25,422 bases of DNA from a virus (Duplodnaviria; Heunggongvirae; Uroviricota; Caudoviricetes): IMG/VR virus record IMGVR_UViG_2574180238_000002, one strand, 5' to 3'. The translations under genes and the position numbers were made by a program. The notes under the pieces are model-generated. The model saw nothing but the letters and a program-made list of their open reading frames with translations, searched no databases and had not been told where the DNA came from. Below, one piece after another: positions 8,408 through 25,011 of this stretch (position 1 is the stretch's first letter; every line of letters begins with the position of its first letter).

Positions 8408-8674
8408 CTATGTTTCCTTTTTATTATTGCTATACATGGTCTTAAGCGTTTCAAAAACCATTTTCTTAACCATATCAGATTGTTGTTCTGCCATACGCTC
8501 TGCATCGTCAATGTAAACTGATGCAGAGCTTTGTTTAGCCAATGATTCTTCAATCGCTGCAATTATCTCTGAGTTCAGCGACCTGTTATTCATCTTCGCG
8601 CGCTGTTTAATTTTCGCGTGGAGTTCATGCGGAAGTCTCAAGTGAAACTGCGCCTCGTCGTATTTGCTGTACAT
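8408..8674 (-). CDS. mnt: Mnt-like ribbon-helix-helix repressor
   Basis: 88 aa from ATG at 8674; aligns by eye with remembered P22 Mnt (..NGRS.NSE...DAER.A..QS..VKKMVF.TLK..Y). Confidence 0.7.
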   Translation of the reverse strand: MYSKYDEAQFHLRLPHELHAKIKQRAKMNNRSLNSEIIAAIEESLAKQSSASVYIDDAERMAEQQSDMVKKMVFETLKTMYSNNKKET

Positions 8675-8795
8675 CCTTGATGCCTCACCAGTTGGGTGGA
8701 ATGGCATCGTAACCTACTGGATAAATACTCAATAGTACCATTTCTGTATGCAATCACATCATGGTTGCATCATATCATTCGTCTGGAGCAATGAA

Positions 8796-10613: not shown

Positions 10614-10640
10614 AAAAAAGGGGCTTTCAGCCCCTTTTTA
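10612..10640. terminator. bidirectional rho-independent terminator
   Basis: aaaaaaaa-ggggct-ttc-agcccc-ttttta: perfect 6-bp GC-rich stem flanked by A-run and T-run, between convergent tailspike and acyltransferase genes. Confidence 0.65.
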
Positions 10641-10641
10641 T

Positions 10642-11685
10642 CTAATATCTGAATTTGTTTGATATCTTTTTCCCAATATCCATTGCTGGTTTTTCTATCG
10701 CAATAAATGATATCAGTCCAGCAATAAGTGATAGTGCTATGCATAAAACTTGATTTAAGTACAGGTTTATATCAGGTAATAACCTGAATGTTATCTGCTG
10801 TATTAAAAAGCCCCACAAGTAAACGCCATATGACACATCATGTTTTATTCTTACTGATTTTATTATTTTTGTTGTTGATAAATACACGAAAAATGTACAT
10901 GCGCAAAAGTAAAAAAGCATATGCTTGAGTGTTGGGTCTGACACAAAATTATATAATATTGCAAATCCTATTGGTGCATGTGGTGAAATGTATATTTTGT
11001 CCTTGTTTATAGCATACAATGCGCCAAGAGCAAAGCATGGAGCCATTAAAAACACATCTGCATTATCGTTATTTATAAAAATTAATTTGTTCCATCCCAA
11101 TACTGGAAGCGCTATTATTGATAAGCATATGATGCTAGGTATTATTCTTCCTCTGCTCTGAGTTATCATGTAGCATGCTAGGAGCACGACATAAGATGCA
11201 ACTTCATATGGTATTGTCCATAAGGAACCATTAACTGATCTTTTATATATATTTTCCTCAAAAACACCAGGAAGAAAAAATTGCATATCCAAATATGAGC
11301 TTTTAAATAGATAGCTGTACGTCAGTGTATCTTTTAAATAAGATGTCATTGAGTGCGTTGTAAGTAATGGTCCAACAATGAATGTCGCGAATAATAAAAC
11401 AAAAATGAATGCGGGGAATATTCTAAAAAATCTAGATGAAATAAAGTGTGGTATGTTGCGCGTTGTTAATAAACTATTAGTTACAAGCATTCCACTAATA
11501 AAGAAAAATATTTTTACAGCAATGGAACCAGTATATGTAAATGTGAAAACAGACTGAACCGGCTCCTGGGCTCCATCAGAATTTGCAAGATAATATGAAT
11601 GGGCAAATATTACAGAAATTGCACAAAAAATACGTATTAAGTCAAGGTTATTGTTATCCCTTTTTAGCGCATCTTTGACCAACAT
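10642..11685 (-). CDS. integral-membrane acyltransferase family 3 protein (O-antigen acetyltransferase-like)
   Basis: 347 aa from first ATG; multiple hydrophobic segments; N-terminal motif ...LDLIRIFCAISVIFAHS typical of acyltransferase-3/Oac-type enzymes; visibly AT-rich; sits where P22-like phages carry O-antigen conversion genes. Confidence 0.7.
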   Translation of the reverse strand: MLVKDALKRDNNNLDLIRIFCAISVIFAHSYYLANSDGAQEPVQSVFTFTYTGSIAVKIFFFISGMLVTNSLLTTRNIPHFISSRFFRIFPAFIFVLLFATFIVGPLLTTHSMTSYLKDTLTYSYLFKSSYLDMQFFLPGVFEENIYKRSVNGSLWTIPYEVASYVVLLACYMITQSRGRIIPSIICLSIIALPVLGWNKLIFINNDNADVFLMAPCFALGALYAINKDKIYISPHAPIGFAILYNFVSDPTLKHMLFYFCACTFFVYLSTTKIIKSVRIKHDVSYGVYLWGFLIQQITFRLLPDINLYLNQVLCIALSLIAGLISFIAIEKPAMDIGKKISNKFRY

Positions 11686-12075
11686 AAAAATCACCTAACT
11701 GTTTATTTTGAAGAGCATTGTATCATCAGATAGCCGCACTTTCACTCCCATCAGATCACCGTCAGAAATTATCATAAGCGCCAGTTCATCATGTGCAATT
11801 GCGTGCAAACAAAATATTCACTGCAGAGAGATTAAGTAGATTGATTCTACTGGGTTGGCATGAGACAAAACTGAGACACAGAAAGCTTTGCACTGGATTG
11901 CAAGGCTTTGTGCTCTCCTGTGGATGTGTGTCTACATGTTTGAAGATTGTTGTGCCGTATTTGTGACATACGCATGACAACATCATGCATCAACTTTCTG
12001 TTTGTGCCATCAACTATAGCTTAGTGAATGCGGTTAATGCTTGCTAAAACAGATAGTTATGATTGGTGCTACAGA

Positions 12076-12121
12076 TTCGTAATGCGAAGGTCGTAGGTTC
12101 GACTCCTATTATCGGCACCAT
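12076..12121 (+). other. partial tRNA-Thr 3' segment (anticodon loop to CCA): central att site of the tandem array
   Basis: ATTCGTAATGCGAAGGTCGTAGGTTCGACTCCTATTATCGGCACCA matches the 3' 46 nt of tRNA-Thr(CGU) as remembered; upstream bases do not form the tRNA 5' half, so this is not an intact gene. Confidence 0.7.
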
Positions 12122-12726
12122 CAAGAAAATCAATAACTTAGCTTAACTTCTCTAAGAAATTGTATCTTCTGTTATCACTTACAAACGCCTATACGTTGTT
12201 ATGGGCTTTGGTAGTGTAACACGTATGGGCGAGTAGTTCCCAGGCTCAACCTCGTAACAAGTTCCTTTGAAGCTGGAAGACGTGCCACCGTCTCTAAACC
12301 TTCTACCAAAACTCTTAGCAAGATGTTCCACACCTGGCGCGGTGTCCAATGATGCTACACGTCGTGAGACGTTGCAGAGGATAAACAGGCTAAATGATGG
12401 GAAGAGTTTTAAGTGCAATAGTGGATCAAAGCCCACCTCTTCAAAACCTAACTTGATCGGGAAAGAATCAAGCTCTAGCACGGTTTCGTCCACCGGAGTA
12501 CAACGGGTGCCTGATAAGAGAAGAACTGCTAAGACTTCATAGCTTTTGTGAAAAAGCCCTTTTTAGTGGATACGCCTACGGCGCTTATTTTTTGGTATAA
12601 CCATCAAAGGCGCTTTATGGCTCCTATTGTCTTGAAAATGTATCTTTACTTGTATTGTGTTTTATGCGTAGTCTCCCTGTGTAGTATGTAACTTGTTAAT
12701 TTTCATATGAATACAGAGGCAACACG

Positions 12727-12879
12727 ATGAAAAACATTGCAGCTATAAAACGTAATAACCGCAAGATTCACGCTCGTAAGTTCCTGTCTACGCCAGAAGG
12801 AAAAGCCTGGCTAGAGCGTAAACAGAGAGAGAACGAAGAAAGAAAACTCCTTAGTGAGTTGAAATGGCTTAAGGATTGA
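12727..12879 (+). CDS. small basic protein (50 aa), uncertain
   Basis: MKNIAAIKRNNRKIHARKFLSTPEGKAWLERKQRENEERKLLSELKWLKD; not in the ORF track (below its length cutoff); followed by a long hairpin. Confidence 0.3.
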   Translation: MKNIAAIKRNNRKIHARKFLSTPEGKAWLERKQRENEERKLLSELKWLKD

Positions 12880-13429
12880 ATCACCAGTAGGCGCATAACA
12901 CATCCAGCGATCAAAGATGTGTTTATGCGCCTGATAGTGAAATTATTAAAGTTTTTTAGTTAATGTAGCCATTGCATGAACGATGATCGCTAGTGAATCG
13001 ATTTTATCTCGAGGGGTAAAATAGATGAGGTATATGATGGTAACAATTACAGCTAAAGTAATTGTGGTTCTGCAGGTTTTTAAAATGGATAAGATAAAGC
13101 GCATAGATACCCCCTATTGATTTAACAACAATAAGGTATCATTTATTTTTTATTGCATGCAATGTGCAAATTTTCACATATAATAGCTTACTATTCACTT
13201 TGCATGGTGTCAACAAGATGATGTGTTGTTTTGTTTGATTTGTTCAAGATAATATTTCATTTTCTCATCTATATAACTTGTGTTTTAGATAATTTCACTA
13301 ATTGTAAAAGTTACGTATTGCTTAATAGCTGCCTTTTTATCTGAAATCGGCGCAAACGTGATCAATGTTTAACGCGAAGATCAGCGGCGTCAGGTCCACG
13401 CAGCGACAATTCTCAAATATCAGGAGGCA

Positions 13430-13981
13430 TTACGCTTCCTGCTCTTTCTTGATACGTTGCACCGTCTGTGTGCTGACACTGAAATCTTTTGCTACGCTCC
13501 GAATTGATCCACCATTCGCGAGAGCGGCAACAATTCCCGCTCGATCAATTGCTTTTCCATTACCACGTTTTGCTATACGTCCAGCGGCCTTAGCTGCGGC
13601 GATCCCCTCACGTTGCCGCTCAAGCATCATTTCACGTTCCATTTGTGCCACTGCTGCAAGCACTGTGAGCATCATATTCCCTGCGGGAGAGTTCTTCCCT
13701 GTCTTAAAGTCTTCTTTATGGAAATGCACAGACACGCCGCGCTCTGTTAATTGCTCAACCGTTGCCAGAAGGTCGGCTGTATTACGGCAAAGGCGATCAA
13801 TACTGTGAACATGCACAACATCACCTTCCCGCACATAGTTCATCATTGCCTCAAACTGTGGGCGCTGAGTGTTCTTGCCTGACGCTTTATCTTCAAAGAC
13901 TTTATCAAGAGTTACTCCAGCTAATTGACGGTCTGTGTTTTGTTGCACAGTCGATACCCTAATGTATCCAATATTAGCCAT
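13430..13981 (-). CDS. serine recombinase (resolvase/invertase family)
   Basis: MANIGYIRVSTVQQ... with the catalytic Ser context, DRL.R motif and C-terminal HTH (GGSIRSVAKDFSVSTQTVQRIKK); ~183 aa, typical of small resolvases/invertases; RBS 9 nt upstream of ATG at 13981. Confidence 0.8.
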   Translation of the reverse strand: MANIGYIRVSTVQQNTDRQLAGVTLDKVFEDKASGKNTQRPQFEAMMNYVREGDVVHVHSIDRLCRNTADLLATVEQLTERGVSVHFHKEDFKTGKNSPAGNMMLTVLAAVAQMEREMMLERQREGIAAAKAAGRIAKRGNGKAIDRAGIVAALANGGSIRSVAKDFSVSTQTVQRIKKEQEA

Positions 13982-14507
13982 TTTCATTTTCCTTCTGTGT
14001 TGATTTGTGTGTAGTGATTATTGATCGTGTTGATTAGGTGTGTAAAGGACTTTTTTCACTACGAAATTCGAAGGTTTTTAGTGTGGTGATTTAGCCTGCT
14101 TTATCACTACACGTCTTGCATGAGAATCATGTAGTTACATTTTGGTAAAATTAGCAAGCTATTAAATAGTGTGTTTATTTTGAAAAAATAATTTTTTGTT
14201 GCATTAAAGGAAACTTGTTCGACAAATAATAGATTGATTTTTAATCAACAATTTCTGATAGTGCTCTGTAAGCCGTATTACACAAGGCTTTGCGAAAGTG
14301 ATGTAAAAGTGAAGAAAGCTAACATTGCACTTTTTAAGCTACTTTTCATTGGATTTTTACGTAGGAATTACACAGGGATTAATCATCAATTACATTGAAT
14401 TTAAGCCTGTTTTAGATGTTTAATTTTGGTAGCAAGAAACACTTTTAGAAGATCATTGCACAGATGTTATGTGATAAATGGATGTAACGGTAGGTCACTG
14501 TGAACTA

Positions 14508-14644
14508 CCCCCACAGAATTCTGTTATCCTTAACTTTTAAAGAAATATGCACCCTAACAGAAAACTGTTACCCCAACCCTAACAGAATTATGTTAGATAC
14601 CCCCACAGAAAACTGTTAGCCACCCCTACAGAATTTTGTTACCT
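14508..14644. repeat. array of five ~23-bp iterons, each a TAACAG-N4-CTGTTA palindrome preceded by a C-run
   Basis: Cores at 14513-14526, 14557-14570, 14582-14595, 14605-14618, 14628-14641; four of the five start 23 bp apart. Confidence 0.65.
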
Positions 14645-14756
14645 ATTAGATCAACTATCAAACTACAATTAAATTATCTTTTATAAATTCTTTTATCTTT
14701 AAAGAATAATTAAGTGATACCCGTTAGGGAGTCTTCGACTATCCCTTAATCTATTG

Positions 14757-15033
14757 GCATTCGCCAGAACCTTGCACAAGTTAGAGTGTTAGTCGTTAGA
14801 CTGCTTGTCATAACACATAGTTTTTGTTTGTTGATGTTAGTTAGTAGATCTATGTTCGCTAATGCCGCTCACAACGAATATGTAATCTACTATGTGCAAA
14901 TAGCCTACGGCTTGCGTAAGGCTAAATAGTCTATGCGCTGTGCGCTTCAATAGTTCCATTGATGAGGCTTACGCCAATCTAACGATCATCAATCATCTAA
15001 AATAAATTTCTTGTGCAATGTTCTGGCGAATGC
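14757..15033. repeat. 24-bp inverted-repeat pair flanking a 229-bp segment
   Basis: gcattcgccagaaccttgcacaag (14757-14780) versus reverse complement of cttgtgcaatgttctggcgaatgc (15010-15033): 23/24 identity. Confidence 0.55.
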
Positions 15034-15339
15034 AATTAGAGTAGCGTTACCCCTTTGGGGATGCTAACGCATAACTATAGATCAACCATCAAACAGACAA
15101 AAAAGAAAAATATGGTTTAAAGATGTTAGGTAGTAGATGAGATTCTACCGCTTAAATCAAGCCGTAGGCGAGCTAAACAGCCTCTACATAAGGGAATGTA
15201 TTGTATTTATCAAAACCTCGTCAGAGGGCGTTTTAGAGCGTTTTAGAGAATAAGGAAGAATAGGAGCACTCTTAAGAGCACGAATTGCTAAGAAAAATTA
15301 TAACACACTGAAAATGATCAATATTTTTATGGCTAGGGG

Positions 15340-15368
15340 TTGACAAAAGCTTTTAGTCGTGGTAAAGT
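15340..15368 (+). promoter_or_regulatory. candidate sigma70 promoter for the 15492-17800 operon
   Basis: TTGACA (15340-15345), 17-bp spacer, TAAAGT (15363-15368). Confidence 0.4.
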
Positions 15369-15491
15369 AATATTAGGGACAGAAAACATTCTTATCCTCT
15401 AAGTAATTAAACCAATGCACCGCACTTTGAAGCCCAACAAGGCTTGCAAGGTGTTTTTTCTTTTAACCAAATAGAATAAGGAGGCTAATTA

Positions 15492-15668
15492 ATGAAATAT
15501 TTTACTCCACAGGATGTAGTTGAAGCCTGGAAACGTGGTGAGATTAATCGTTTTAAAGTAAGGATGAACAGGAACACAGCGCGACGCTGTGGTTATCCAG
15601 AGCGTGAAAAATGCTTTGACGATGCACTAAAAATTATTGATGAACTGCGTAAGGCAGAGAAAGAATAA
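15492..15668 (+). CDS. small protein (58 aa), unknown function
   Basis: Strong SD AAGGAGG upstream of ATG; MKYFTPQDVVEAWKRGEINRFKV...; first gene of a co-directional operon. Confidence 0.5.
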   Translation: MKYFTPQDVVEAWKRGEINRFKVRMNRNTARRCGYPEREKCFDDALKIIDELRKAEKE

Positions 15669-15689
15669 TAACAGGAGAAGGAGAAAACT

Positions 15690-15860
15690 ATGAGCGAAAC
15701 TACAGAAAAGAAAAGACAACCACGCACTTGCTTTCATATTCCTGATGAAGTATTTCAGGTGTTGTTTAAAGAAGCCAGAAGTAAACGTATCACTGTTACA
15801 GATTACATTCTTGATATGTTGAAAAGAGAGGCTGAAACACTCTCAAACAAAAGCAAGTGA
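15690..15860 (+). CDS. small ribbon-helix-helix-like DNA-binding protein (56 aa)
   Basis: SD AGGAGAAGGAG; sequence RTCFHIPDEVFQVLFKEARSKRITVTDYILDMLKRE fits a beta-strand then two helices as in CopG/Arc/ParG-type RHH proteins (by-eye secondary-structure pattern). Confidence 0.5.
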   Translation: MSETTEKKRQPRTCFHIPDEVFQVLFKEARSKRITVTDYILDMLKREAETLSNKSK

Positions 15861-15913
15861 TTTTTATCACCATAGTAGCGCCGTAGAGCGTGATTACATC
15901 AAGGAGATTTTTA

Positions 15914-16483
15914 ATGATTAATGAAGAACAATTTGTAAAAGTTCCTATGTGGATTCTAAAAATAAGCCAAGTAAACGGACATAAATTTACAGATAGTGCT
16001 AAAAACCTTTACTGCTATCTGAGAGGGTTTGATCGTGCATTTCCCTCTTACGCTAAGATAGGCGATGTTTTTGGCATAACACCAAGAGCAGCAGAAGAAA
16101 GGGTTAAGAAATTGCTCGAAATGGGATTAATTATAAAAGATGCACGACCAGGAAGCTCTAACCTTTATCGAGTGCTTGATATTCCAAAAGGAGAATCATC
16201 ACTACCTGATCCTTCTGAGAAAGAAGACGAATCTAATGAAATATTGAATGTTTCCGAAATCATCGTTGAAGAAGAAACACAAGAGCCAGAGTTCCCTGAG
16301 CGGCCCGAAATTTTTACTTGGCTTCTTTCCCTTGATAAGAAGAAACCACCGCACGAAGAAACAGAAGATTTTGTAAAACGAGCATTAGATTCAAAGAATA
16401 TCTATCTTTGTGAAAATGATTTTGACTCTTTGATAATTGATCTCAAAAGTGAGAGCACAATATATGATTCACTACCCTTCTAA
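15914..16483 (+). CDS. predicted winged-helix DNA-binding protein with acidic C-terminal tail
   Basis: ATG at 15914 with AAGGAG RBS; N-terminal ~90 aa has a wHTH-like pattern (..AKIGDVFGITPRAAEERVKKLLEMGLI..); C-terminal half highly acidic. Confidence 0.55.
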   Translation: MINEEQFVKVPMWILKISQVNGHKFTDSAKNLYCYLRGFDRAFPSYAKIGDVFGITPRAAEERVKKLLEMGLIIKDARPGSSNLYRVLDIPKGESSLPDPSEKEDESNEILNVSEIIVEEETQEPEFPERPEIFTWLLSLDKKKPPHEETEDFVKRALDSKNIYLCENDFDSLIIDLKSESTIYDSLPF

Positions 16484-16492
16484 GGAGAATAA

Positions 16493-16750
16493 ATGACTTA
16501 TAACATCACTATAGGAAACAAAACTATTGAAATAACTGAAAGCGGATACAACATTTTAAAAGCTATTTTGGACATAGAGTTTTCACCACCGACAGTGGTT
16601 AGCTTTTGTAGTTTAGGCGGCTACAGCGCACAACACGTAAATCATTTTACATCGTTCGGTGTGCTGGATTATGAAGGGATTAACAGCACTACATTTCGTC
16701 TTTTGAAATTAAACAAAGATTTTGAATTGTTTCTCACAAACAATCAATAA
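16493..16750 (+). CDS. hypothetical protein (85 aa)
   Basis: AAGGAG RBS; same-strand operon context. Confidence 0.5.
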   Translation: MTYNITIGNKTIEITESGYNILKAILDIEFSPPTVVSFCSLGGYSAQHVNHFTSFGVLDYEGINSTTFRLLKLNKDFELFLTNNQ

Positions 16751-16847
16751 CAACAGATCGGGCAATACATATGGCAAATGCATTTATGGCGATATTCATC
16801 GTAACAATGGCGTCCAGTTTTTATAATCCACATAAAAAGAGGGAAAA

Positions 16848-17231
16848 ATGGGAAGAAAGAAAAAGAACAACTTAAAACGTATTGAAAAAAACAGTAATTT
16901 CAATTCAAAAAGACAACGTCCACCGACACACACCAATAACGAAATTCCAGGGGAAGAGATAATCTTTATTCTTGAAACAGAATCCCCTGAATTAAGTGAT
17001 GAAGAATTAGAAATAATCCAATCAATGCCAGGCGTTTACTTTCGCCCAAGAACAAGAAAACAAACTATCATTTCTGATGGCACTCTGAAACGTTGGCAGC
17101 TTTTAGGGTTTAGCTCCTATCATCATTTTTTGGGATTTAACGCTTTCAATAATTGTGTAGGTGGTGCATCGGAAGTCGATCTGATGGCTCATTTAGAAGA
17201 TACATTAGCTTCTAACAAACGTTCTAACTAA
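16848..17231 (+). CDS. hypothetical protein with basic N-terminus and acidic middle (127 aa)
   Basis: RBS AGAGGG; N-terminal Lys/Arg-rich stretch followed by an acidic segment. Confidence 0.5.
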   Translation: MGRKKKNNLKRIEKNSNFNSKRQRPPTHTNNEIPGEEIIFILETESPELSDEELEIIQSMPGVYFRPRTRKQTIISDGTLKRWQLLGFSSYHHFLGFNAFNNCVGGASEVDLMAHLEDTLASNKRSN

Positions 17232-17246
17232 TAAAATGATGGGTGT

Positions 17247-17492
17247 ATGTATAAGCGCCCAATGAAAATATTCAAAAAAGGAAAAATAATGATTGGCTAT
17301 ATTCAAGAAACACAATTATTTCAGATGATCCTGTCTGATGCAAAAAACTATGCAGAGTTAATTCGGCTGGCAAAAGAAACAGAAGACTACGAAGCATTAG
17401 AGCGTTACCGTGATGAAGTGCTGACGCTCAAGACACCTTTTAACATCGTATTGAATATGATTAATGATGCATTACAAGGAGAATACGCATAA
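17247..17492 (+). CDS. hypothetical protein (81 aa; alternative start at 17289)
   Basis: ORF with better RBS (AAGGA) before the internal Met at 17289; stop overlaps the next start (ATAATG). Confidence 0.45.
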   Translation: MYKRPMKIFKKGKIMIGYIQETQLFQMILSDAKNYAELIRLAKETEDYEALERYRDEVLTLKTPFNIVLNMINDALQGEYA

Positions 17493-17800
17493 TGGAAGAA
17501 GATATTAGCAATGCAATGGAACAACTTTTAGAACTGACTATCTCACTACAAACAAGAATAAATCAAGCCTATTCAGATTTATGCGATTACACGCTCTCTC
17601 AATGCGTTATTAGCTTAATGAAGGTGAATGTAAGCCTTGACGATTTTATCTCTCTTGGGAGCGATTTAGAGCTATCAGAGGACGATGCAAAACAGTGTAA
17701 TCAAATCATCACAGACATCGCCACCACGTTAAAGGTTGCAAGTGAAGAGATTCAGCAATTAGTAGATGATTTAGCAAAAAGTGCTATTTTCTCTAAATGA
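17492..17800 (+). CDS. strongly acidic small protein (102 aa)
   Basis: AAGGAG RBS; about 19 Asp/Glu versus about 6 Lys/Arg by count. Confidence 0.5.
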   Translation: MEEDISNAMEQLLELTISLQTRINQAYSDLCDYTLSQCVISLMKVNVSLDDFISLGSDLELSEDDAKQCNQIITDIATTLKVASEEIQQLVDDLAKSAIFSK

Positions 17801-18642
17801 TAATGAAAATTATTTGCATTTATAATGATTTTGTTATATAATAATTTTAGGGGTAGATAAAAAGATTTTAGTTGGTGTTAATCCTTCTACTGTCATAAAT
17901 CCCTGCATATGGAAGGTGATAGCCTCAAAGGTTGAGTGGCATTAACCTCTAACAAATATTACCTTCCATCTCTCAAGAAGTTTTAGAATAATCATAACTC
18001 CCTCTTTGATTGTTGATTGTTTCTACGTTGTGTTGATGAATGTTGTTAGGCATTGTGCTTAATTTTGATAAAAGCGGGTAGGTGTTATCTCCTTGCCCTT
18101 CCCGCTCTTATTTTTCATCTATGCTTATCCTAAAGCTCCTTATTTTGTCAGAAAACATTAAAGAGCCTTACACTGATAGTTATATTTTATAACTATTTAC
18201 TAACATCATTAAACTATTATTTAATGACAGAAGTTAGTAACAGAATAATCTATTAAGTTGTTGTCAAAAACAATCATCTGCATAGCGTTAGCCGCAAGCA
18301 GAGAGAGTTTAGCTAAGAATGGTGCAATAAACTTTGGAAATATTGATAGCAAAACGGGTTTTATAGAATGCGGATCTATAAGCTTTGGTTGTAAAAACGA
18401 TTTTCTGAAACGGTAGATTACTGTTGGTGTAGTTAATCATTATTAAAAATTTAATCTGTGAGTAGATTGGAATAGTGATTCCTTAAAATCTGACTGGTGC
18501 ATCCACACCATGAAAGATAGCGGTTGGCCACCGCGCCCCGAATAGATATTCCTGATTGATTCCGCATGTTTTCCTAAGAGCATGTTTTCAGGAGTATCTA
18601 TTCACCCTTTAAGCATATCATCAAGTATATTTAAAAAGTGTA

Positions 18643-18671
18643 TTTGCTGATATGTTTAATCCTCTTATAGT
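18643..18671 (+). promoter_or_regulatory. candidate sigma70 promoter for the 18785-23366 operon
   Basis: TTTGCT (18643-18648), 17-bp spacer, TATAGT (18666-18671); weak -35, good -10. Confidence 0.3.
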
Positions 18672-18784
18672 TTAACTTATCAATTATGTAATTGCCCGCA
18701 CGTTAAAGCCCCTTTGCTGGTCAGAATTAACCTCTTACGGCATTGGGGCTTTTTATTTGTCTGGCACTAACAGGAACATTATTT

Positions 18785-18982
18785 ATGAAACAAGAAATGA
18801 TTATCAGCAAAGACGGGGAAACGATGATTGTTAGTGATGAAAACCTCATTAAGGTTGCCGCACTGTTGGGAGTTACTCCCGAAAGTCTTCGTTCTACCAC
18901 TGCTCAATTATTTAAATCGGCTGATGCGGTTAGTCTTGCTGATGCCCTTAAATCTAAAATTAAACAACTGAAAGGAAAATAA
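18785..18982 (+). CDS. hypothetical protein (65 aa)
   Basis: AGGA RBS before ATG at 18785; first gene of the second operon. Confidence 0.45.
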   Translation: MKQEMIISKDGETMIVSDENLIKVAALLGVTPESLRSTTAQLFKSADAVSLADALKSKIKQLKGK

Positions 18983-18986
18983 TCTT

Positions 18987-19370
18987 ATGGCTAACCCATA
19001 TGGAAAATTAAAAGCAGTGAATGCGGATAACTCCCGTTCACGCTGTAAGGTAGTAGCTTACGCTGCTGATCCAGTGCTGCAAGATCGCCTCGTCAAACTG
19101 GCTTCACCTCTCACTGACGATCTTATTGTCGGGGCTTTGCTGAAAGCCGATGGCACCAAAGCAACAACCGCATCTGATATTGCTCACGTAGTAGTTGAAC
19201 CGGCTTATGAAGGACAGGAAAGCGTAGTGGTTGCACATCCTACTTTCGTTATTCTGGCTGAAGATGGGATTGAATTTAACAGCATGGAAAAGGCAAGTGT
19301 TATTGCAAAACTGCAATCTCTCGGCTTTGTAATTGCTGGTTATGAAGAACTTGCGATCCCTACGACTTAA
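18987..19370 (+). CDS. hypothetical protein (127 aa)
   Basis: AAGGA RBS; tightly spaced with neighbours (4-14 nt intergenic). Confidence 0.55.
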   Translation: MANPYGKLKAVNADNSRSRCKVVAYAADPVLQDRLVKLASPLTDDLIVGALLKADGTKATTASDIAHVVVEPAYEGQESVVVAHPTFVILAEDGIEFNSMEKASVIAKLQSLGFVIAGYEELAIPTT

Positions 19371-19384
19371 CAAGGAAAATAATA

Positions 19385-20416
19385 ATGAATGATTTATCAA
19401 CATATTTTGGCGTTAATACTGCGGTAGTAACTCCATTTGCTTATGAGAATGCACTTAATACCCTGATTACTAATCTCGATCTGTTCGATGTGCAATATCA
19501 TACAGAAAACAGCATTCTTCTTACCGACCTGATTGATCAGTTTGTGCAGGTAGCTGGGGAAACCTCGCCTTACGCTCAAAGCGACTGGAACGCCTCTAAA
19601 CGTCAGGAATGGTCAAACAAACTTTTCCAGATGAAACACGTCGGCAGTATTAACGCTGTTACTTCTCGTGACCTGGAACAATACAGCCGCCAATATCCAA
19701 ACCGTTCTGATGCTATGCTGGTAGCGGTTAATGATTTCTCTGAGGCTCATTACCGTTCACACGCAAACCGTGTTGAAGTGGATCTGATTACCGCGCTGCT
19801 GGGCCTGAAAGTTGAATCTGAATATGCCGGACAAGGTGATCTCGACTTCCTCGACGGTCAGGCTAAAACCACGGTACCCGCTATCGACTTTGCATCGACT
19901 ACTGTTAACCCGTTCCTTGCTATTCGTAAAGCGGTGCGCTTACAGAGTGAAAAGCTGGGGTCTGGTCTTGCTGCAAAGCGAACTGGTGTAATTATCTTTG
20001 CTGCTGGCACTGCTGCTGATGGTTTGTCATCTAACCCGCTGATCAGTGACATGGTGAAATATGCAGGCGATGCGAGTGCTACGGCCCTGTTTACCCGTAT
20101 GGTTGATTCTAACCCAGCCTATGACTCTTTCCAGATTGGTGGGATCACTGTTATTGATGTGTCAATGTTTCCTGAGATTGTTGCTCACATCGGAGAGAAC
20201 GGTTTCGCAATTGTTCCGGTAATGGATAAAGCGGCACAGTGTTACCAGCTTCATAGCGGCGTTGGTGTGCGTCATGCTGAGTTAGGTCAAGATGCCGTGT
20301 TGCATCACCAATATCTAATCAAGGATGAATTCCAATTCCCATCTGTGGTTACTGAGACATCTTATCTGCCAGTAAACAACATTCCGCAAGCTATCATCTT
20401 CGGATCTGCTGCGTAA
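19385..20416 (+). CDS. hypothetical protein (343 aa), function unknown
   Basis: AAGGA RBS; no signal peptide or recognisable catalytic motif by eye. Confidence 0.55.
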   Translation: MNDLSTYFGVNTAVVTPFAYENALNTLITNLDLFDVQYHTENSILLTDLIDQFVQVAGETSPYAQSDWNASKRQEWSNKLFQMKHVGSINAVTSRDLEQYSRQYPNRSDAMLVAVNDFSEAHYRSHANRVEVDLITALLGLKVESEYAGQGDLDFLDGQAKTTVPAIDFASTTVNPFLAIRKAVRLQSEKLGSGLAAKRTGVIIFAAGTAADGLSSNPLISDMVKYAGDASATALFTRMVDSNPAYDSFQIGGITVIDVSMFPEIVAHIGENGFAIVPVMDKAAQCYQLHSGVGVRHAELGQDAVLHHQYLIKDEFQFPSVVTETSYLPVNNIPQAIIFGSAA

Positions 20417-20567
20417 TAAAGCGTTAATAGACGATTCCCCATCGGGGCAATAAGGGTAAAGGGATTAACTAACCTGTAGGCGCAAATACAGTAACGAATC
20501 TCTTTGCCCTTTTTGTTTTTCTACTGTCTACAAACCCAAATAAAAATATATATGTGAGAGAAAACCA

Positions 20568-20765
20568 ATGAATACAGAAAACCCACAATCCTTTATTCTT
20601 AAAGCTGTAAAAGAACTGGCAGCTATTAGCGAGGAATCAGTTATAAACACATCGGCGCTTTGCCGCCTTTTAGAAATTGATGCAAATAATGTGCGCCAGC
20701 GTGTCTTTCAGACTGGGTGCAGCACTTTCGAAGCAATTCAATACTATTGCTCTAAAAAACAATAA
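20568..20765 (+). CDS. hypothetical small protein (65 aa)
   Basis: ORF in operon context; weak RBS. Confidence 0.4.
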   Translation: MNTENPQSFILKAVKELAAISEESVINTSALCRLLEIDANNVRQRVFQTGCSTFEAIQYYCSKKQ

Positions 20766-20799
20766 TAAACAACAATCATAATACAGGGAAACAATTAGC

Positions 20800-22641
20800 A
20801 TGTTAGAACTTAACGTCAGCCGCTTATCAAACGTTGTCACCTTCCAGGTTGATCGACCATCATTAGAGAAAGCAAAAGCAGAAGTAGAAAAACTTCGTAA
20901 ACAAATGGCGGCGGTGAAAGATATAGAATTGCGTGTTAAGACACATAAACAATCAACTTCTAAAGCAAAAAAAGACGTAGACGATATTGCTAAAAAGCAA
21001 GCACAGGCAGATAAAGCCAATGCTAAAGCACAATTAGCCGCTCAACGTGTAGTTGCAAGAGAACAAAAAGCCCTGGCAGCACGCAAAGAGAAGGCAGACT
21101 TAAAACTGTTAGACGTTGGATCAAGCATTAGTGCATTGCACCGCCTTTCTGTAGCGGAACAATATAAAGCTATTGCACAGGCTAGAGAAATTGCCCTCCA
21201 ATATGAAAGAGGAGCTATTAGTCTGGCACGTATGAATAGCCAAATGAAACGCCTACAACAGCAACAACGTAAGATTAATGGCAATCGTAACGCTCACGCT
21301 AAAGCCTATGCACCTGTTAAGGGTAGCGGGAGTATTGGCGGCGGTGCTGCGGCTGTTATGCTGGGTGGCTTAGGCGCTGGCGCTACGTATATGGCTATGA
21401 GCAAAGCCTCTGAATTTGTTACTAACAGCTTTGCGAATGCTGAAACGCTGGGTGAATTGTATAGCCGTGCGAAGCTGGGCGGTGTAGACGTTAACCAGAT
21501 GAACAATATTGAGCAATGGGCCTACAAAAACGGCGTTGATTCAATGATGGGGGATCAAGGTAAACGTAAGTATCTCGATCAGATGAAAGATGTGCGTGAG
21601 CGTGCAACCAAAAGCTATGATGAGGCTGAATATGTAGTCGATAAAAAAACAGGCAAAGGTGAATGGAAGGGCGGCGATAGCGGCATCAATACTTTAATGA
21701 ATGAAGGATTCTTAACTAAAAAGGATCTAAAAGACTTTGCTGATAATCCGGCTGGTCTGGTTAGTAAAGCAGTTCAGGGAATGGTGAAGAAAGGCTATTC
21801 AGATGCACAAATCGGTAGTCGTCTGGAAGATCTGGCTGATGATTTGATGCTCACCTCTAAATACTGGACACGCTCCGCTAAAGAAGTGGAACAATCAGCA
21901 CGAGAACAACTAGAATCAGGGCGCTGGGTAACACAGGCACAACAGGAAAGCGTTATTAAATTCCGTGAACTGAATAATGCACTTAGTGGGCTTTCTGACT
22001 CACAAGGGATCGCCTTTGTTGATGGCTTTATGAAATCTCTTGATCCGAAAGTGATTGAAGAGTTTAAAAAGAGCATGGTTGCAATGCTGCCAATGTTTAC
22101 CAAATTAGGCGAGGCTATCGGCGGATTGGTTAACGCCGTAATGAAAACAATCAACTGGCTGATGAAAAACGACGAGAAGACGGAAGCTATTCAGAAGAAT
22201 TTAGGGGATGCACCGCCACTATCTAACGAAGGAATGAAGCAGAATCTTTCTAATCTCACTCCTGATCAATATAAAGGCGCTGGCACCGGAACAACTAAGC
22301 CAGATAACAGCAATTCCCTGGTTAACACTATTAAAAGCTGGTTTATGCCAGAAGAAACGGTAGGTGGGGCGCAGGCTGTAAATCAATACAGTCTCGAAGG
22401 ACAAAACATTGCAAATCTGAAACAGAGTGCAGCACAACAAGCTTTCAAGGCTCCTTCTTACACCTTTGCACCTGTTATTAACTTCAATCCAGAATTACAA
22501 GTAAATGCAGAAGTGCCGCTAACTATCGAATCAGACACCGGACGATTGAGCGAATTTATCGACTTCAAATCAAAGGCATCCTCCGCTGAGTTTAGCAAGC
22601 TATTAACGCTGGGTGTTATGTCAGGCGGGTCAACCTATTAA
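20800..22641 (+). CDS. large coiled-coil protein with Gly-rich hydrophobic segment (613 aa)
   Basis: AGGGA RBS; N-terminal ~170 aa Lys/Ala/Gln-rich heptad-like sequence; GSGSIGGGAAAVMLGGLGAGATYMAM resembles a glycine-zipper membrane segment. Confidence 0.6.
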   Translation: MLELNVSRLSNVVTFQVDRPSLEKAKAEVEKLRKQMAAVKDIELRVKTHKQSTSKAKKDVDDIAKKQAQADKANAKAQLAAQRVVAREQKALAARKEKADLKLLDVGSSISALHRLSVAEQYKAIAQAREIALQYERGAISLARMNSQMKRLQQQQRKINGNRNAHAKAYAPVKGSGSIGGGAAAVMLGGLGAGATYMAMSKASEFVTNSFANAETLGELYSRAKLGGVDVNQMNNIEQWAYKNGVDSMMGDQGKRKYLDQMKDVRERATKSYDEAEYVVDKKTGKGEWKGGDSGINTLMNEGFLTKKDLKDFADNPAGLVSKAVQGMVKKGYSDAQIGSRLEDLADDLMLTSKYWTRSAKEVEQSAREQLESGRWVTQAQQESVIKFRELNNALSGLSDSQGIAFVDGFMKSLDPKVIEEFKKSMVAMLPMFTKLGEAIGGLVNAVMKTINWLMKNDEKTEAIQKNLGDAPPLSNEGMKQNLSNLTPDQYKGAGTGTTKPDNSNSLVNTIKSWFMPEETVGGAQAVNQYSLEGQNIANLKQSAAQQAFKAPSYTFAPVINFNPELQVNAEVPLTIESDTGRLSEFIDFKSKASSAEFSKLLTLGVMSGGSTY

Positions 22642-22688
22642 TCATCACTGTGGGGCTGTTTAGCCCCCTTAAATAAGGATTACAAATT

Positions 22689-23366
22689 ATGGCAATGGGT
22701 CCGTTAACCATTGGTCGCCCGACTGAGGCGAAAATCAACAGCACAAGCAACGATAGCAACGGTAGAACAACCAAAGGGGGTAACGGCTTTGCGATCATTA
22801 CCTCTAATCTCGGCAGTGGTGCAAATGCTGCTTACAATGACTACCAGGCATTATCATTTGATAGCGTGGAATCGACGAAAGTTAGCAGAAATGCGGACGT
22901 TACAAGCTATGCCGTCGAATCAGGATCAGAAGTTAGTGATCATGTTCAAATACGGAATAACAAGTTCACATTACAAGGGCGTATCTCTGAAACCGTATTG
23001 AAGCTCAATCCTGATATGATTAAGAATGCTGGAATTAACGGCAATCGACGTATGCTTATGCTTGAATACCTAAATCAGTTGATGGACAGTCGCCAACCTT
23101 TCCTACTTGTCACTGAGTTAAAAAATTATGACAACGTTGTGTTAGTTGGCATGTCTTACGAAGAAGAAGCAAGCGAAAGCCTATTGTTTACTCTTGATTT
23201 TGAGCAAATCCGTCTTGTCTCTAAAGCAACTACAAGCGCAATTGCGGTAAAAACAGCACCAAATAAATCTGTAGGAGGCCAGGTTAAAATGCAGGTAAAT
23301 ACAACAGAACAGAAAAATCAAAAAAGCCCAGGGCAAGACGTTGTAACGCCAGTATTTAAACAATAG
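22689..23366 (+). CDS. hypothetical protein (225 aa)
   Basis: AAGGA RBS; preceded by a ggggct-gttt-agcccc hairpin. Confidence 0.55.
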   Translation: MAMGPLTIGRPTEAKINSTSNDSNGRTTKGGNGFAIITSNLGSGANAAYNDYQALSFDSVESTKVSRNADVTSYAVESGSEVSDHVQIRNNKFTLQGRISETVLKLNPDMIKNAGINGNRRMLMLEYLNQLMDSRQPFLLVTELKNYDNVVLVGMSYEEEASESLLFTLDFEQIRLVSKATTSAIAVKTAPNKSVGGQVKMQVNTTEQKNQKSPGQDVVTPVFKQ

Positions 23367-23446
23367 CCTTAAACGCCTATGAAACGCTCTGTAACGAGAT
23401 AATCATAAAAGAGGCATCAGCCTATATTGAAGCCTCTTTATTACGT

Positions 23447-24724: not shown

Positions 24725-24823
24725 AAAATCTCCGGCTAAAGTGTCGGAGCGTTTGTAATGTGAAAATTGATTGTGACGCATAGAAAATGATGATTTTTCT
24801 ATAAGATTCAATCAATTAGTAAT

Positions 24824-24885
24824 GGTCGTAGGTGATGGCATTAACACGAGATTAATCGAGTGTTTTACTCCTATTATCGGCACCA
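24824..24885 (+). other. degenerate pseudo-tRNA / right att of the second element
   Basis: 19-nt exact match to the tRNA-Thr 3' end (ACTCCTATTATCGGCACCA, 24867-24885), plus an upstream 10-nt tRNA-like piece (GGTCGTAGGT, 24824-24833) separated by non-tRNA sequence. Confidence 0.6.
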
Positions 24886-25011
24886 TTAAAATCAAAGAGT
24901 TACCCCATATTTAAATACACCACGTTTCCTCCTGTGCCGTATTTGTGCCATTGTAACCTTGGCAATTCATCAAAATACTGTTCTGACATCAGGCAGTGCA
25001 GGTGCAGACAT

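What the first reader, a model, noticed from the sequence alone, without database searches (positions are those of the whole stretch)
15492..17800. Operon of small DNA-binding and strongly acidic proteins: regulatory or anti-defence module?
Seven co-directional small genes behind a near-consensus -35 include an RHH-like protein, a wHTH protein with a highly acidic tail, and a 102-aa protein with about 19 acidic versus 6 basic residues. Strongly acidic small proteins in leading regions of mobile elements are often DNA mimics (Ocr/ArdA-type anti-restriction), but this is inference from composition only.
Basis: inference. Interest (0 to 1): 0.6.

Follow-up and report, generated by a model that had tools for sequence, protein, structure and literature searches.

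The report
Replication operon of a phage satellite
The seven small genes are the early, replication-initiating operon of a 12.8-kb E. coli island already catalogued in 2023 as a putative satellite (parasite) of large lytic phages. They are not a set of DNA-mimic anti-restriction proteins.

Summary
The seven co-directional genes are real. All have ribosome-binding sites, an invariant TTGACA lies upstream, and pN/pS is 0-0.52.

They sit in a 12.8-kb island (window about 12102-24886) in tRNA-Thr (thrW), flanked by 20-nt direct repeats. Near-identical loci are in Table S6 of Barth, Dunham & Seed 2023 (PMC10448857), which lists 224 putative E. coli satellites.

The "wHTH protein with acidic tail" (15914-16483) is that paper's RepA. 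Its first 100 residues are identical to the N-terminus of a chimeric T5orf172-type nuclease of lytic phage Mt1B1_P17, an analogue of Odn of vibriophage ICP1.

New here:
- Five 23-bp iterons plus an 85% A+T stretch (14507-14709) form the likely origin.
- Across 17 loci, four iteron types co-vary with four RepA N-terminal types. The roughly 1 kb between the two cassettes stays homologous.
- The phage nucleases' second DNA-binding domain also matches a satellite RepA type (93% nt).
- RepA proteins end in D-x-[I/L]-P-F, like the SSB C-terminal tip.
- A terminator hairpin lies in the operon leader.

The acidic 102-aa protein is a polymorphic three-helix protein found only in Escherichia. Nothing ties it to Ocr or ArdA. 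The functions of ORF1, 2 and 4-7 remain unassigned.

The parts
12102..12121 (.). Left copy of the 20-nt direct repeat (3' end of tRNA-Thr thrW). It marks the left end of the island. The tRNA 3' part starts at 12075, next to a P22-like prophage remnant.
   Evidence: blastn of the tRNA region of L001 against the window; tRNA-Thr annotated in L001
13430..13987 (-). Small serine recombinase of the resolvase/invertase family, 185 aa.
   Evidence: Pfam Resolvase 8.9e-39; phrog_125 DNA invertase 4.5e-62
14507..14644 (+). Five 23-nt iterons, ACCCnnACAGAAnnnTGTTA. This is variable cassette 1 and the likely origin-binding sites of ORF3.
   Evidence: repeat family D1; type co-varies with ORF3 N-terminal type; motif occurs nowhere else in the window
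14650..14709 (.). Stretch of 15% G+C directly beside the iterons. Candidate DNA-unwinding element.
14747..15043 (.). Two 34-nt inverted repeats (14747-14780 and 15010-15043) around a 229-nt segment. Not seen inverted anywhere; role unknown.
   Evidence: I1; same orientation in 17 loci; 0 of 352 genomes carry the inverted junction
15340..15368 (+). Promoter-like site TTGACA-17-TAAAGT with TG. The -35 hexamer is invariant across variants.
15422..15464 (+). Leader hairpin (13 pairs with one bulge, 6-nt loop) followed by UUUUUUCUUUU. Terminator-like element between the promoter and ORF1.
   Evidence: fold; stem conserved, loop varies
15492..15668 (+). ORF1, 58 aa, basic (pI 9.3). The most conserved small protein of the operon. 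Function unassigned.
   Evidence: (pN/pS 0.04)
15690..15860 (+). ORF2, 56 aa, possibly RHH. It has two alleles (about 44% identity) and is absent from type B islands. Allele 2 is also present in phages inny and muut, directly upstream of their nuclease gene.
15914..16483 (+). ORF3, the RepA-like initiator (189 aa). The N-terminal wHTH (about residues 1-94, variable cassette 2, ending near 16190) is followed by an acidic half (residues 95-189, net charge -17) ending in YDSLPF.
   Evidence: PMC10448857
16493..16750 (+). ORF4, 85 aa. No family match. Missing from some variants. A 92-aa counterpart (22% identity) sits at the same place in a second island lineage.
16848..17231 (+). ORF5, 127 aa. 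Lys/Arg-rich N-terminus (10 K+R in 35 residues) and a conserved core (GEEIIFILE...IIQSMPGVYFRPRTRK). Present in both island lineages. Function unassigned.
17289..17492 (+). ORF6, 67 aa, acidic (pI 4.3). No family match.
17492..17800 (+). ORF7, 102 aa, acidic (19 D+E, 6 K+R). Predicted three-helix protein. Mosaic and polymorphic. Found only in Escherichia.
18705..18760 (+). Stable hairpin (AAAGCCCC...GGGGCUUU) followed by a U-rich run, just upstream of the second operon.
   Evidence: z = -3.16
18785..23366 (+). Second (morphogenesis-like) operon: 65-aa protein, 127-aa decoration-like protein, 343-aa capsid-like protein, 65-aa protein, 613-aa tape-measure-like protein, 225-aa Dit/baseplate-like protein.
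   Evidence: phrog_29 5.5e-5, phrog_16051 1e-33, Dit_like 1.2e-27; closest phage relatives in Stephanstirmvirinae; PMC10448857
23447..24724 (-). Tyrosine integrase.
24867..24886 (.). Right copy of the 20-nt direct repeat. It marks the right end of the island.

Best explanation
The seven genes are the early operon of a 12.8-kb integrative island in tRNA-Thr (thrW). The island belongs to the putative E. coli phage satellites described bioinformatically by Barth, Dunham & Seed (2023).

**Shown or strongly supported**
- ORF3 is the element's RepA-like initiator. Its exchangeable N-terminal winged-helix domain matches, type for type, an exchangeable array of 22-23-bp iterons. The array lies about 0.85 kb upstream of the operon promoter, next to an 85% A+T stretch. 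This is the likely origin of replication.
- Lytic Stephanstirmvirinae phages (Mt1B1_P17, BI-EHEC, inny, muut) carry nucleases built from two such satellite DNA-binding domains plus a T5orf172/MUG113-type nuclease domain. This is the design of Odn, the nuclease with which vibriophage ICP1 cuts the origin of its satellite PLE.

**Inferred**
- After infection by a helper phage the operon is expressed, possibly by read-through of the leader terminator.
- ORF3 binds the iterons, opens the A+T-rich stretch and brings in a replisome. Its acidic C-terminal half would do this through a tip (D-x-[I/L]-P-F) that resembles the SSB C-terminal peptide DDDIPF.
- ORF1 and ORF2 are small accessory or regulatory partners.
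- ORF4-7, including the acidic ORF6 and ORF7, are most likely proteins that bind helper-phage or host proteins rather than DNA mimics. Their functions are not established.
For: **Island identity**
- The window from 12075 aligns at 98.6% with a stand-alone island beside tRNA-Thr in strain EC195. 20-nt direct repeats flank it.
- The top E. coli hits (LR882978, CP024240, CP023349, CP020545) are the same places listed in Table S6 of PMC10448857. That paper describes the Dec/MCP/TMP/baseplate/Int/RepA gene set and the phage odn homologues.

**ORF3 as initiator**
- phrog_270 'replication initiation protein' at 1.2e-8, plus several O-like families.
- HTH_36 at 6e-4.

**Co-variation of iterons and ORF3 N-terminus**
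- Four iteron types at the same position pair with four ORF3 N-terminal types that are only 21-36% identical to each other.
- The two variable cassettes (14499-14656 and about 15690-16190) are separated by about 1 kb that stays 84-96% identical.
- The pairing holds in different backgrounds. Type A occurs with another ORF2 allele and another C-terminal domain in L015/L016. Types B and D each occur with both C-terminal variants.
- Type B islands lack ORF2, so ORF2 is not the iteron-specific partner.

**Origin features**
- 15% G+C at 14650-14709.
- The iteron motif occurs only in the array.

**Phage chimeras**
- Mt1B1_P17 QNJ49226.1 residues 1-100 are 100% identical to ORF3. Its second domain is 83% identical to type B RepA. 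Its C-terminus matches phrog_681 'endonuclease' at 2.4e-18, MUG113 at 4e-4 and T5orf172 at 0.04.
- inny carries type D (92% aa; 95% nt over 625 nt contiguous with a type D island, including ORF2) plus type B.
- muut carries a fifth type plus type B.
- No phage record contains the type A iteron array.

**Link to the candidate helper phage group**
- The closest phage relatives of the island's Dit-like protein (53% identity) and tape-measure-like protein (about 30%) are in 145-152-kb Stephanstirmvirinae.

**C-terminal tip**
- 102 of the 120 family members listed end in YDS[LI]PF or DFD[IL]PF. This holds across two unrelated C-terminal domain types.
- SSB-Ct is DDDIPF (PMC5872125).
- The Mt1B1_P17 SSB contains PPMDFDDDIPF.

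**Coding evidence**
- pN/pS is 0-0.52 for all seven ORFs.
Against: - No experiment shows replication, excision, packaging or helper dependence of this element. The published description is also purely computational.
- Pfam RepA_N itself is not detected by hmmscan. The HTH_36 match is below the gathering score.
- ORF3 has no recognisable helicase-loading or ATPase domain. Its C-terminal domain occurs only in this family (6 representative clusters).
- No DnaA box lies near the iterons.
- Co-variation rests on 17 loci, some of which are clonally related. Genome counts for type A iterons (144) and the type A N-terminus (173) are similar but not identical.
- The SSB-tip resemblance is a six-residue motif.
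- The functions of ORF1, 2, 4, 5, 6 and 7 remain unassigned. The ORF5 model is poor (pLDDT 58.6).
Confidence: 0.8

Rival explanations
1. ORF6, ORF7 and/or the acidic half of ORF3 are DNA mimics of the Ocr/ArdA kind. They would protect incoming element DNA from restriction or other DNA-targeting defences.
For: - Composition only: ORF7 has net charge -13 and pI 4.05; ORF6 has pI 4.3; ORF3 residues 95-189 have net charge -17.
- ORF7 is polymorphic and mosaic with the highest pN/pS of the operon (0.52), as expected of a protein in an arms race.
Against: - No match to any Pfam, PHROG, NCBIfam or PADLOC family.
- The ORF7 model is a plain three-helix protein of moderate confidence with no PDB fold match better than E = 0.5. 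Neither Ocr nor ArdA is among the 50 matches listed.
- The acidic half of ORF3 is attached to an origin-type DNA-binding domain and ends in a conserved protein-binding-type motif.
- The element is a tRNA-integrated satellite-like island, not a conjugative element with a leading region.
Confidence: 0.05
2. ORF3 is a transcription factor, and the 23-bp repeats are an operator or enhancer array rather than an origin. The operon would then be purely regulatory.
For: - HTH_36-type winged helices also occur in regulators. RefSeq labels homologues 'transcriptional regulator' or 'LexA family'.
- Each repeat contains a small palindrome (ACAGAAnnnTGT) of the kind dimeric regulators bind.
- No replication assay exists.
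Against: - The best family matches are phage replication initiators.
- The repeats lie about 0.7 kb upstream of the promoter's -35 and next to an 85% A+T stretch, a typical iteron-origin layout.
- Phages have fused exactly these domains to a nuclease, as ICP1 did with the PLE RepA domain in order to cut the PLE origin.
- The two roles are not exclusive, since iteron initiators often also autoregulate.
Confidence: 0.12
3. The region is a decaying prophage remnant, and the small ORFs are leftovers without a present function.
For: - The island has no terminase, portal or complete tail genes.
- Some copies carry IS insertions or deletions: IS1 in the ST131 copy, and an ORF3-ORF6 fusion in L009.
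Against: - The same gene order is kept in two lineages that are only 30-67% identical in protein sequence.
- All genes are under purifying selection.
- The att repeats and the integrase are intact.
- The region is present in 683 of 5426 complete E. coli genomes.
- Phages have evolved nucleases that match its RepA types.
Confidence: 0.03

Closest known systems
Putative E. coli satellites targeted by coliphage odn homologues (Barth, Dunham & Seed 2023, NAR Genom Bioinform 5:lqad076; PMC10448857)
   Same: This is the same element family.
- Near-identical loci are in their Table S6.
- ORF3 is their RepA.
[quoted passage not shown]
   Different: The paper does not map an origin or iterons, and does not discuss the small genes around repA. 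Its Figure 8 legend says the second DNA-binding domain of the phage nucleases has no detectable satellite counterpart.

Found here:
- That second domain is 83-90% identical in protein (93% nt over 261 nt) to the RepA type of islands L010/L012/L018.
- The iteron cassettes co-vary with RepA type.
- The neighbouring ORF2 gene was also captured by inny and muut.
PLE RepA, its iteron origin, and ICP1 Odn (Vibrio cholerae; PMC8263062)
   Same: - The logic is the same. A satellite initiator has an exchangeable N-terminal DNA-binding domain and cognate iterons.
- A lytic helper phage fuses that domain to a T5orf172 nuclease to cut the origin.
- Replicon-module exchange serves as escape.
   Different: - Host and phage group differ.
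- There is no detectable sequence relation between the small genes here and PLE genes.
- Domain identity between phage and satellite is 83-100% here, against 42% for Odn and PLE1 RepA.
- The coliphage nucleases carry two satellite-type domains in tandem.
Iteron-binding phage and plasmid initiators of the lambda O / HTH_36 / DnaD-N kind
   Same: An N-terminal winged helix binds tandem repeats next to an A+T-rich stretch. PHROG families of this kind are the best matches.
   Different: - ORF3 is short (189 aa).
- Its iterons lie outside and upstream of the gene.
- Its C-terminal half is an orphan acidic domain found only in this family.
SSB C-terminal peptide (SSB-Ct, DDDIPF), the protein-recruiting tip of bacterial SSB (PMC5872125)
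   Same: An acidic stretch ends in [D/S]-[I/L]-P-F at the very C-terminus. One RepA lineage ends in EDFDIPF, against MDFDDDIPF in SSB.
   Different: The motif sits on an origin-binding protein, not on a single-strand-binding protein. Binding to any SSB partner is untested.
Ocr and ArdA DNA-mimic anti-restriction proteins
   Same: Small size and acidic composition of ORF6 and ORF7.
   Different: No sequence or fold similarity was found. The genomic setting is different.

Membership tests
Putative E. coli satellites of Barth et al. 2023 | A RepA-type protein whose N-terminal domain is homologous to the N-terminus of a coliphage T5orf172 nuclease and which itself lacks the nuclease domain | tested here: met
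   ORF3 residues 1-100 are 100% identical to Mt1B1_P17 QNJ49226.1 (98.6% nt). ORF3 has no nuclease domain.
Putative E. coli satellites of Barth et al. 2023 | Gene set of decoration, capsid, tape-measure, baseplate and integrase genes, without terminase, protease or a full tail | tested here: met
   Matches: phrog_29 at 5.5e-5 (weak), phrog_16051 at 1e-33, Dit_like at 1.2e-27, Phage_integrase at 1.5e-17. The decoration-like assignment rests on position only. No terminase or portal was found.
Putative E. coli satellites of Barth et al. 2023 | Flanking attachment-site repeats, next to a tRNA | tested here: met
   A 20-nt direct repeat of the tRNA-Thr 3' end lies at 12102-12121 and 24867-24886.
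Putative E. coli satellites of Barth et al. 2023 | Listed in, or near-identical to, a locus of their Table S6 | tested here: met
   CP023349, CP024240, LR882978 and CP020545 are listed with ranges that contain my 97-98% identical hits.
Phage satellite in the functional sense | Helper-dependent excision, replication and packaging | not testable with these tools
   The only evidence is indirect: the phage nuclease chimeras, and tail-gene relatives in Stephanstirmvirinae.
PLE of Vibrio cholerae | Pfam RepA_N domain in the initiator and homology to PLE genes | tested here: not met
   hmmscan lists HTH_36, HTH_24 and HTH_AsnC-type but not RepA_N at E <= 0.1. No PLE-type family appeared in PADLOC or PHROGs for the seven proteins. 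The element works like PLE but is not a member.
Iteron-type replication initiator | A DNA-binding domain related to known initiators, with cognate tandem repeats beside an A+T-rich stretch | tested here: met
   phrog_270 at 1.2e-8. Five 23-nt repeats plus a 15% G+C stretch. Four-way co-variation.
Iteron-type replication initiator | Origin firing that depends on the protein | not testable with these tools
   This needs replication assays.
Ocr/ArdA DNA mimics | Sequence or fold membership in a known DNA-mimic family | tested here: not met
   No Pfam or other family match. Foldseek against the PDB gave nothing better than E = 0.5. The model is only moderately confident.
Ocr/ArdA DNA mimics | A surface array of carboxylates that imitates the DNA backbone, and inhibition of restriction enzymes | not testable with these tools
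   Net charge is -13. With pTM 0.36 the packing is too uncertain for a surface analysis.
Ribbon-helix-helix regulators (Arc/MetJ/CopG), for ORF2 | A significant match to an RHH family | tested here: inconclusive
   phrog_582 Arc-like at E = 0.011. No Pfam RHH match. The profile of both alleles against PDB sequences gave at best E = 0.55, to a 44-aa chain named only 'Antitoxin'.
SSB-Ct-type recruiting peptide | An acidic C-terminus ending in [I/L]-P-F, conserved across the family | tested here: met
   102 of the 120 family members listed have it. The rest are fragments, nucleases or frameshifted. Binding to partner proteins was not tested.

The most novel reading that the evidence does not exclude
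The satellite initiator is a two-part adaptor. A swappable origin-recognition domain is joined to an orphan acidic domain whose SSB-like tip (D-x-[I/L]-P-F) hijacks SSB-binding replisome proteins of the host or of the helper phage, whose own SSB carries PPMDFDDDIPF. This would let an element with no helicase, primase or polymerase gene start replication. The polymorphic acidic proteins ORF6 and ORF7 would be effectors aimed at helper-phage proteins.
Probability: 0.3. Interest if true: 0.6.

Novelty: already known. Interest (0 to 1): 0.35.

Why it matters
These islands occur in about one in eight complete E. coli genomes, including ST131. They appear to parasitise Stephanstirmvirinae, a group of large lytic phages. 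A satellite that blocks such phages, and phage nucleases that defeat it, would be a second, independent example of the PLE/ICP1 arms race.

The element family and the RepA/nuclease link are already published. This analysis adds concrete, testable targets:
- the origin repeats for each RepA type;
- the finding that both DNA-binding domains of the phage nucleases have satellite counterparts;
- a conserved SSB-like tip on RepA;
- terminator-like hairpins in front of both operons.

For the original question, it replaces a composition-based guess (DNA mimics) with an evidence-based assignment (replication module).

Tried and rejected
**Invertible switch.** The 34-nt inverted repeats at 14747-15043 lie beside a DNA-invertase-family gene, which suggested a phase-variable promoter. 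The segment has the same orientation in all 17 loci. None of the 352 E. coli genomes with a match carries the inverted junction. Rejected for lack of evidence.

**DNA mimicry of ORF7.** The AlphaFold2 model is a three-helix protein (pLDDT 70.7, pTM 0.36). Foldseek against the PDB found nothing significant.

**ORF5 structure.** pLDDT is 58.6 and the first 42 residues are disordered. The model is too poor for a fold search, so none was run.

**Family searches for ORF1, 2, 4, 5, 6 and 7.**
- Pfam, PHROGs, NCBIfam and PADLOC gave no significant match.
- PDB sequence searches gave nothing for ORF2, ORF4 or ORF5, and ORF3's best match was E = 0.18 to a hypothetical transcriptional regulator.
- tblastn of the concatenated small proteins against 50,697 phage records found only ORF2 relatives, in inny and muut.

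**Other negative results.**
- HMMER search of the ORF3 C-terminal half against 1.84 billion representatives found only 6 clusters, all of this family.
- No DnaA boxes near the iterons.
- Rfam found no RNA family in the window, and no tRNA gene lies inside the window.
- tblastn of the capsid-like protein against phages gave no match.
- A scan of one genome per species with ORF1 found only Escherichia, plus two metagenome bins labelled Bacillota that are probably mis-binned.
- ORF2 as the iteron-specific protein is rejected. Type A iterons occur with both ORF2 alleles, and type B islands have no ORF2.


Full report
**1. What is in the sequence**

The interval 15492-17800 holds seven + strand ORFs with short or no gaps between them. 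Each is preceded by a Shine-Dalgarno-like sequence. Two starts should be moved. RefSeq annotation of a 98%-identical locus and the AAGGAG upstream favour ATG 15914 for ORF3, giving 189 aa. They favour ATG 17289 for ORF6, giving 67 aa.

A promoter-like site, TTGACA-17-TAAAGT with an extended-10 TG, lies at 15340-15368. Its TTGACA is invariant in twelve aligned island variants. The count of promoter-like sites in the region is not above chance.

The 102-aa protein has 19 acidic and 6 basic residues. Residues 95-189 of ORF3 have 26 acidic and 9 basic. Across island variants pN/pS is 0.00-0.52 for all seven ORFs, so they are real genes.

**2. Genomic setting**

The window is E. coli chromosome at thrW.
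- Positions 1 to about 12074 are a P22-like prophage remnant. It contains an integrase fragment, an Ead/Ea22 protein, injection proteins, Mnt, a tailspike and an O-antigen acyltransferase.
- From 12075 onward the window aligns at 98.6% with a stand-alone island that sits directly beside tRNA-Thr in strain EC195.
- A 20-nt repeat of the tRNA 3' end lies at 12102-12121 and 24867-24886. The island is therefore 12.8 kb.

The island's features, in order:
- a small serine recombinase;
- a 1.5-kb non-coding stretch;
- the seven-gene operon;
- a 0.94-kb gap;
- a second operon with a decoration-like protein, a capsid-like protein (phrog_29, 5.5e-5), a tape-measure-like protein (phrog_16051, 1e-33) and a Dit/baseplate-like protein (Pfam Dit_like, 1.2e-27);
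- a tyrosine integrase.

The 5-kb region around the operon is found in 683 of 5426 complete E. coli genomes.

**3. ORF3 is a replication-initiator-type protein, and phages have copied its DNA-binding domain**

The best family matches of ORF3 are phage replication initiators: phrog_270 at 1.2e-8, plus several O-like families. Pfam gives HTH_36 at 6e-4, below its cut-off.

A megablast of the island against 50,697 phage records found one notable match. The first roughly 355 nt of ORF3 are 98.6% identical to a gene of the lytic 151-kb phage Mt1B1_P17. That gene, QNJ49226.1, encodes 328 aa in three parts:
- residues 1-100 are identical to ORF3;
- a second HTH_36 winged helix follows;
- the C-terminal domain matches phrog_681 'endonuclease' (2.4e-18), Pfam MUG113 (4e-4) and T5orf172 (0.04). 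It is related to GIY-YIG-type homing endonucleases of T5-like phages.

This is the architecture of Odn, the ICP1 nuclease. Odn uses a copy of the PLE RepA DNA-binding domain to cut the PLE origin at its iterons (PMC8263062).

**4. Origin repeats and their co-variation with ORF3**

Five 23-nt direct repeats, ACCCnnACAGAAnnnTGTTA, lie at 14507-14644. A 60-nt stretch of 15% G+C follows them directly. The motif occurs nowhere else in the window, and no phage record contains the array.

In 17 related loci from IMG/VR and RefSeq the island is a mosaic. The capsid-like gene is 99-100% identical wherever it is present, and it is replaced in some variants. ORF3 ranges from 51 to 100% identity.

ORF3 is modular. 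One of four unrelated N-terminal winged-helix domains (21-36% identity to each other) is joined to a conserved acidic C-terminal half. Each N-terminal type comes with its own repeat array at the same upstream position:

| RepA N-terminal type | Iteron | Copies |
|---|---|---|
| A (this window) | ACCCnnACAGAAnnnTGTTA | 5 |
| B | ACCTAGGAAATGAGTTCCTA | 4 |
| C | GGTAGGTCACTGTGAGCTAGGG | 3 |
| D | TGTAACGAnnnGTTACA | 4-6 |

The two non-homologous cassettes (window 14499-14656 and about 15690-16190) are separated by about 1 kb that stays 84-96% identical between types.

The pairing survives changes of background:
- L015/L016 have a type A domain and type A iterons, but the other ORF2 allele and an unrelated C-terminal domain.
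- Types B and D each occur with both C-terminal variants.
- Type B islands have no ORF2, so ORF2 is not the iteron-specific partner.

Counts in complete genomes are of similar size: type A array in 144 genomes and type A domain in 173. I conclude that the ORF3 N-terminal domain recognises these repeats and that they are the origin. This is a strong inference, not a demonstration.

**5. The phage nucleases match several island types**

| Phage | First domain | Second domain |
|---|---|---|
| Mt1B1_P17 | A (100% aa) | B (83% aa) |
| BI-EHEC | A (93% aa) | B (90% aa) |
| inny | D (92% aa) | B (89% aa) |
| muut | a fifth type | B (89% aa) |

At the nucleotide level the B domain of all three phages compared at that level (Mt1B1_P17, inny, muut) is 93% identical over 261 nt to a type B island. 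Phage inny is 95% identical over 625 contiguous nt to a type D island, a block that includes ORF2. The muut protein upstream of its nuclease is 100% identical to ORF2 allele 2.

Type B RepA is among the most abundant types in public data: cluster P0133 is seen on at least 1000 contigs.

The island's Dit-like and tape-measure-like proteins also have their closest phage relatives in the same phage subfamily. Identity is 53% for the Dit-like protein and about 30% for the tape-measure-like protein, both in 145-152-kb Phapecoctavirus/Justusliebigvirus phages.

**6. This is already published**

A literature search turned up Barth, Dunham & Seed 2023 (PMC10448857). That paper reports:
- bacterial RepA_N homologues in 224 putative E. 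coli satellites with Dec, MCP, TMP, baseplate hub and Int genes;
- att sites next to tRNAs;
- modular RepA N-termini mirrored by the phage nucleases.

Their Table S6 lists the same places in CP023349, CP024240, LR882978 and CP020545 that were my top hits. The element and the identity of ORF3 are therefore already known, at a computational level. No experimental follow-up was found in the held library.

The paper does not mention iterons, and it mentions an origin of replication only for PLE, not for the E. coli elements. Its Figure 8 legend states that the second RepA_N domain of the phage proteins has no detectable satellite counterpart. Section 5 above shows that it has one.

**7. Further details of the operon**

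*C-terminal tip of RepA.* Of the 120 family members listed, 102 end in YDS[LI]PF or DFD[IL]PF. The rest are fragments, nucleases or frameshifted. The two C-terminal domain types are otherwise unalignable. The tip resembles the SSB C-terminal peptide DDDIPF, which recruits many replication and repair proteins (PMC5872125). The SSB annotated in Mt1B1_P17 contains PPMDFDDDIPF near its end. The island has no helicase, primase or polymerase gene. I therefore infer that the acidic half of RepA recruits a host or helper replisome through this tip.

*Leader terminator.* Between the promoter and ORF1 there is a 13-pair hairpin followed by UUUUUUCUUUU (15422-15464). Its stem is conserved while the loop varies. 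The fold of the whole 120-nt leader is not more stable than shuffled sequence (z = -0.72). The element rests on the hairpin and U-run together. A second stable hairpin with a U-rich tail precedes the second operon (18705-18760, z = -3.16). Both suggest control by termination and read-through. This is an inference.

*ORF7.* It is confined to Escherichia, occurs in at least 135 clusters at 90% identity, and is a mosaic of alternative segments. Its predicted loop holds a variable number of ELS repeats. It has the highest pN/pS of the operon, 0.52. Its model has three helices.

*ORF5.* It has a Lys/Arg-rich, probably disordered N-terminus and a conserved core. A 31%-identical counterpart exists in the second island lineage, which keeps the same gene order.

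**8.

The anatomy was read correctly. The function offered, Ocr/ArdA-like DNA mimics, has no support beyond composition. For the acidic-tailed wHTH protein it is replaced by a well-supported assignment as satellite replication initiator. The acidic ORF6 and ORF7 remain unassigned. Their polymorphism fits proteins that interact with a fast-evolving partner such as a helper-phage protein. DNA mimicry cannot be excluded without experiments.

**9. Scores**

Novelty is 'already known', because the element family and the RepA/nuclease arms race were published in 2023. Interest is 0.35. The system is attractive, and the added details make it more testable: origin cassettes, the dual match of the nuclease domains, the SSB-like tip and the leader terminators. 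The central point, however, is not new, and the small acidic proteins that prompted the finding remain uncharacterised.

Noticed in passing
window 1-12074: A P22-like prophage remnant is integrated in tandem at the same tRNA-Thr site. It has an integrase fragment (709-1485), an Ead/Ea22 protein, injection proteins (4587-7837), Mnt (8408-8707), a tailspike with a P22 head-binding domain (8748-10613) and an O-antigen acyltransferase (10642-11694). Most early and morphogenesis genes are missing.
   Followed up: partly
window 14747-15043 and 13430-13987: 34-nt inverted repeats (88% complementary) enclose 229 nt, about 0.75 kb from a DNA-invertase-family gene. This looks like a flip switch. It was never found inverted in 17 loci, nor in any of 352 E. 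coli genomes with a match. Its role is unknown; it could be a resolution site or a structured element.
   Followed up: yes
window 17797-18784: The 0.94-kb gap between the two operons begins with two overlapping promoter-like sites (…-18-TATAAT at 17797-17842). It ends with a stable hairpin plus a U-rich run (18705-18760, z = -3.16) just before the second operon. This could be a long leader controlled by termination and read-through. No Rfam family matched.
   Followed up: partly
L037:5862-6794 (phage Mt1B1_P17, QNJ49289.1): The phage's annotated SSB contains the exact E. coli SSB tail PPMDFDDDIPF, followed by 15 more residues (APIGLQYGRNFLHCF). This may be a genuine extension or an annotation or sequencing artefact.
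   Followed up: no
L009:10001-10561: In one island variant a deletion fuses ORF3 (to about residue 153) to the C-terminal part of ORF6. It removes ORF4, ORF5 and the ...PF tip of RepA. This copy is probably decayed.
   Followed up: no
window 17492-17800 and alignment A1: ORF7 homologues carry one to three ELS units (ELS, ELSELS, ELSELSELS) in the predicted loop between helices 2 and 3. They also have two alternative N-terminal segments (MEEDISNAMEQLL and MTDNILEVMDTLS). Many database entries name the protein 'transporter', which nothing here supports.
   Followed up: partly
L007, L008, L014, L018 (about 12890-14670 in L007): Some island variants replace the decoration-like plus capsid-like gene pair by unrelated sequence. 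Others carry alternative tape-measure-like (26% identity) and Dit-like (54%) alleles. The morphogenesis module is as modular as the replication module.
   Followed up: no
L015 and L016 (L015:2816-11325): A second island lineage uses the same integrase type (98% identity). Its gene order matches ORF1-ORF2-RepA-small genes-capsid-like-tape-measure-Dit, but the proteins are only 30-67% identical. Its ORF5 counterpart ends in an acidic tail with a terminal Phe (...DNDDHYGDF).
   Followed up: partly
window 19385-20416: The capsid-like protein has no tblastn match at E <= 1e-3 in 50,697 phage records and only a weak PHROG match (phrog_29, 5.5e-5). It is nevertheless 99-100% conserved among islands that carry it. 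Its fold was not checked here.
   Followed up: partly
L030 (E. coli ST131, NZ_CP103710.1): The ST131 copy of the island has an IS1 insertion that removes the tape-measure-like gene and truncates the Dit-like gene. It lies at the position that ST131 papers call GI-thrW. That it is the same island is my inference from the position only.
   Followed up: partly
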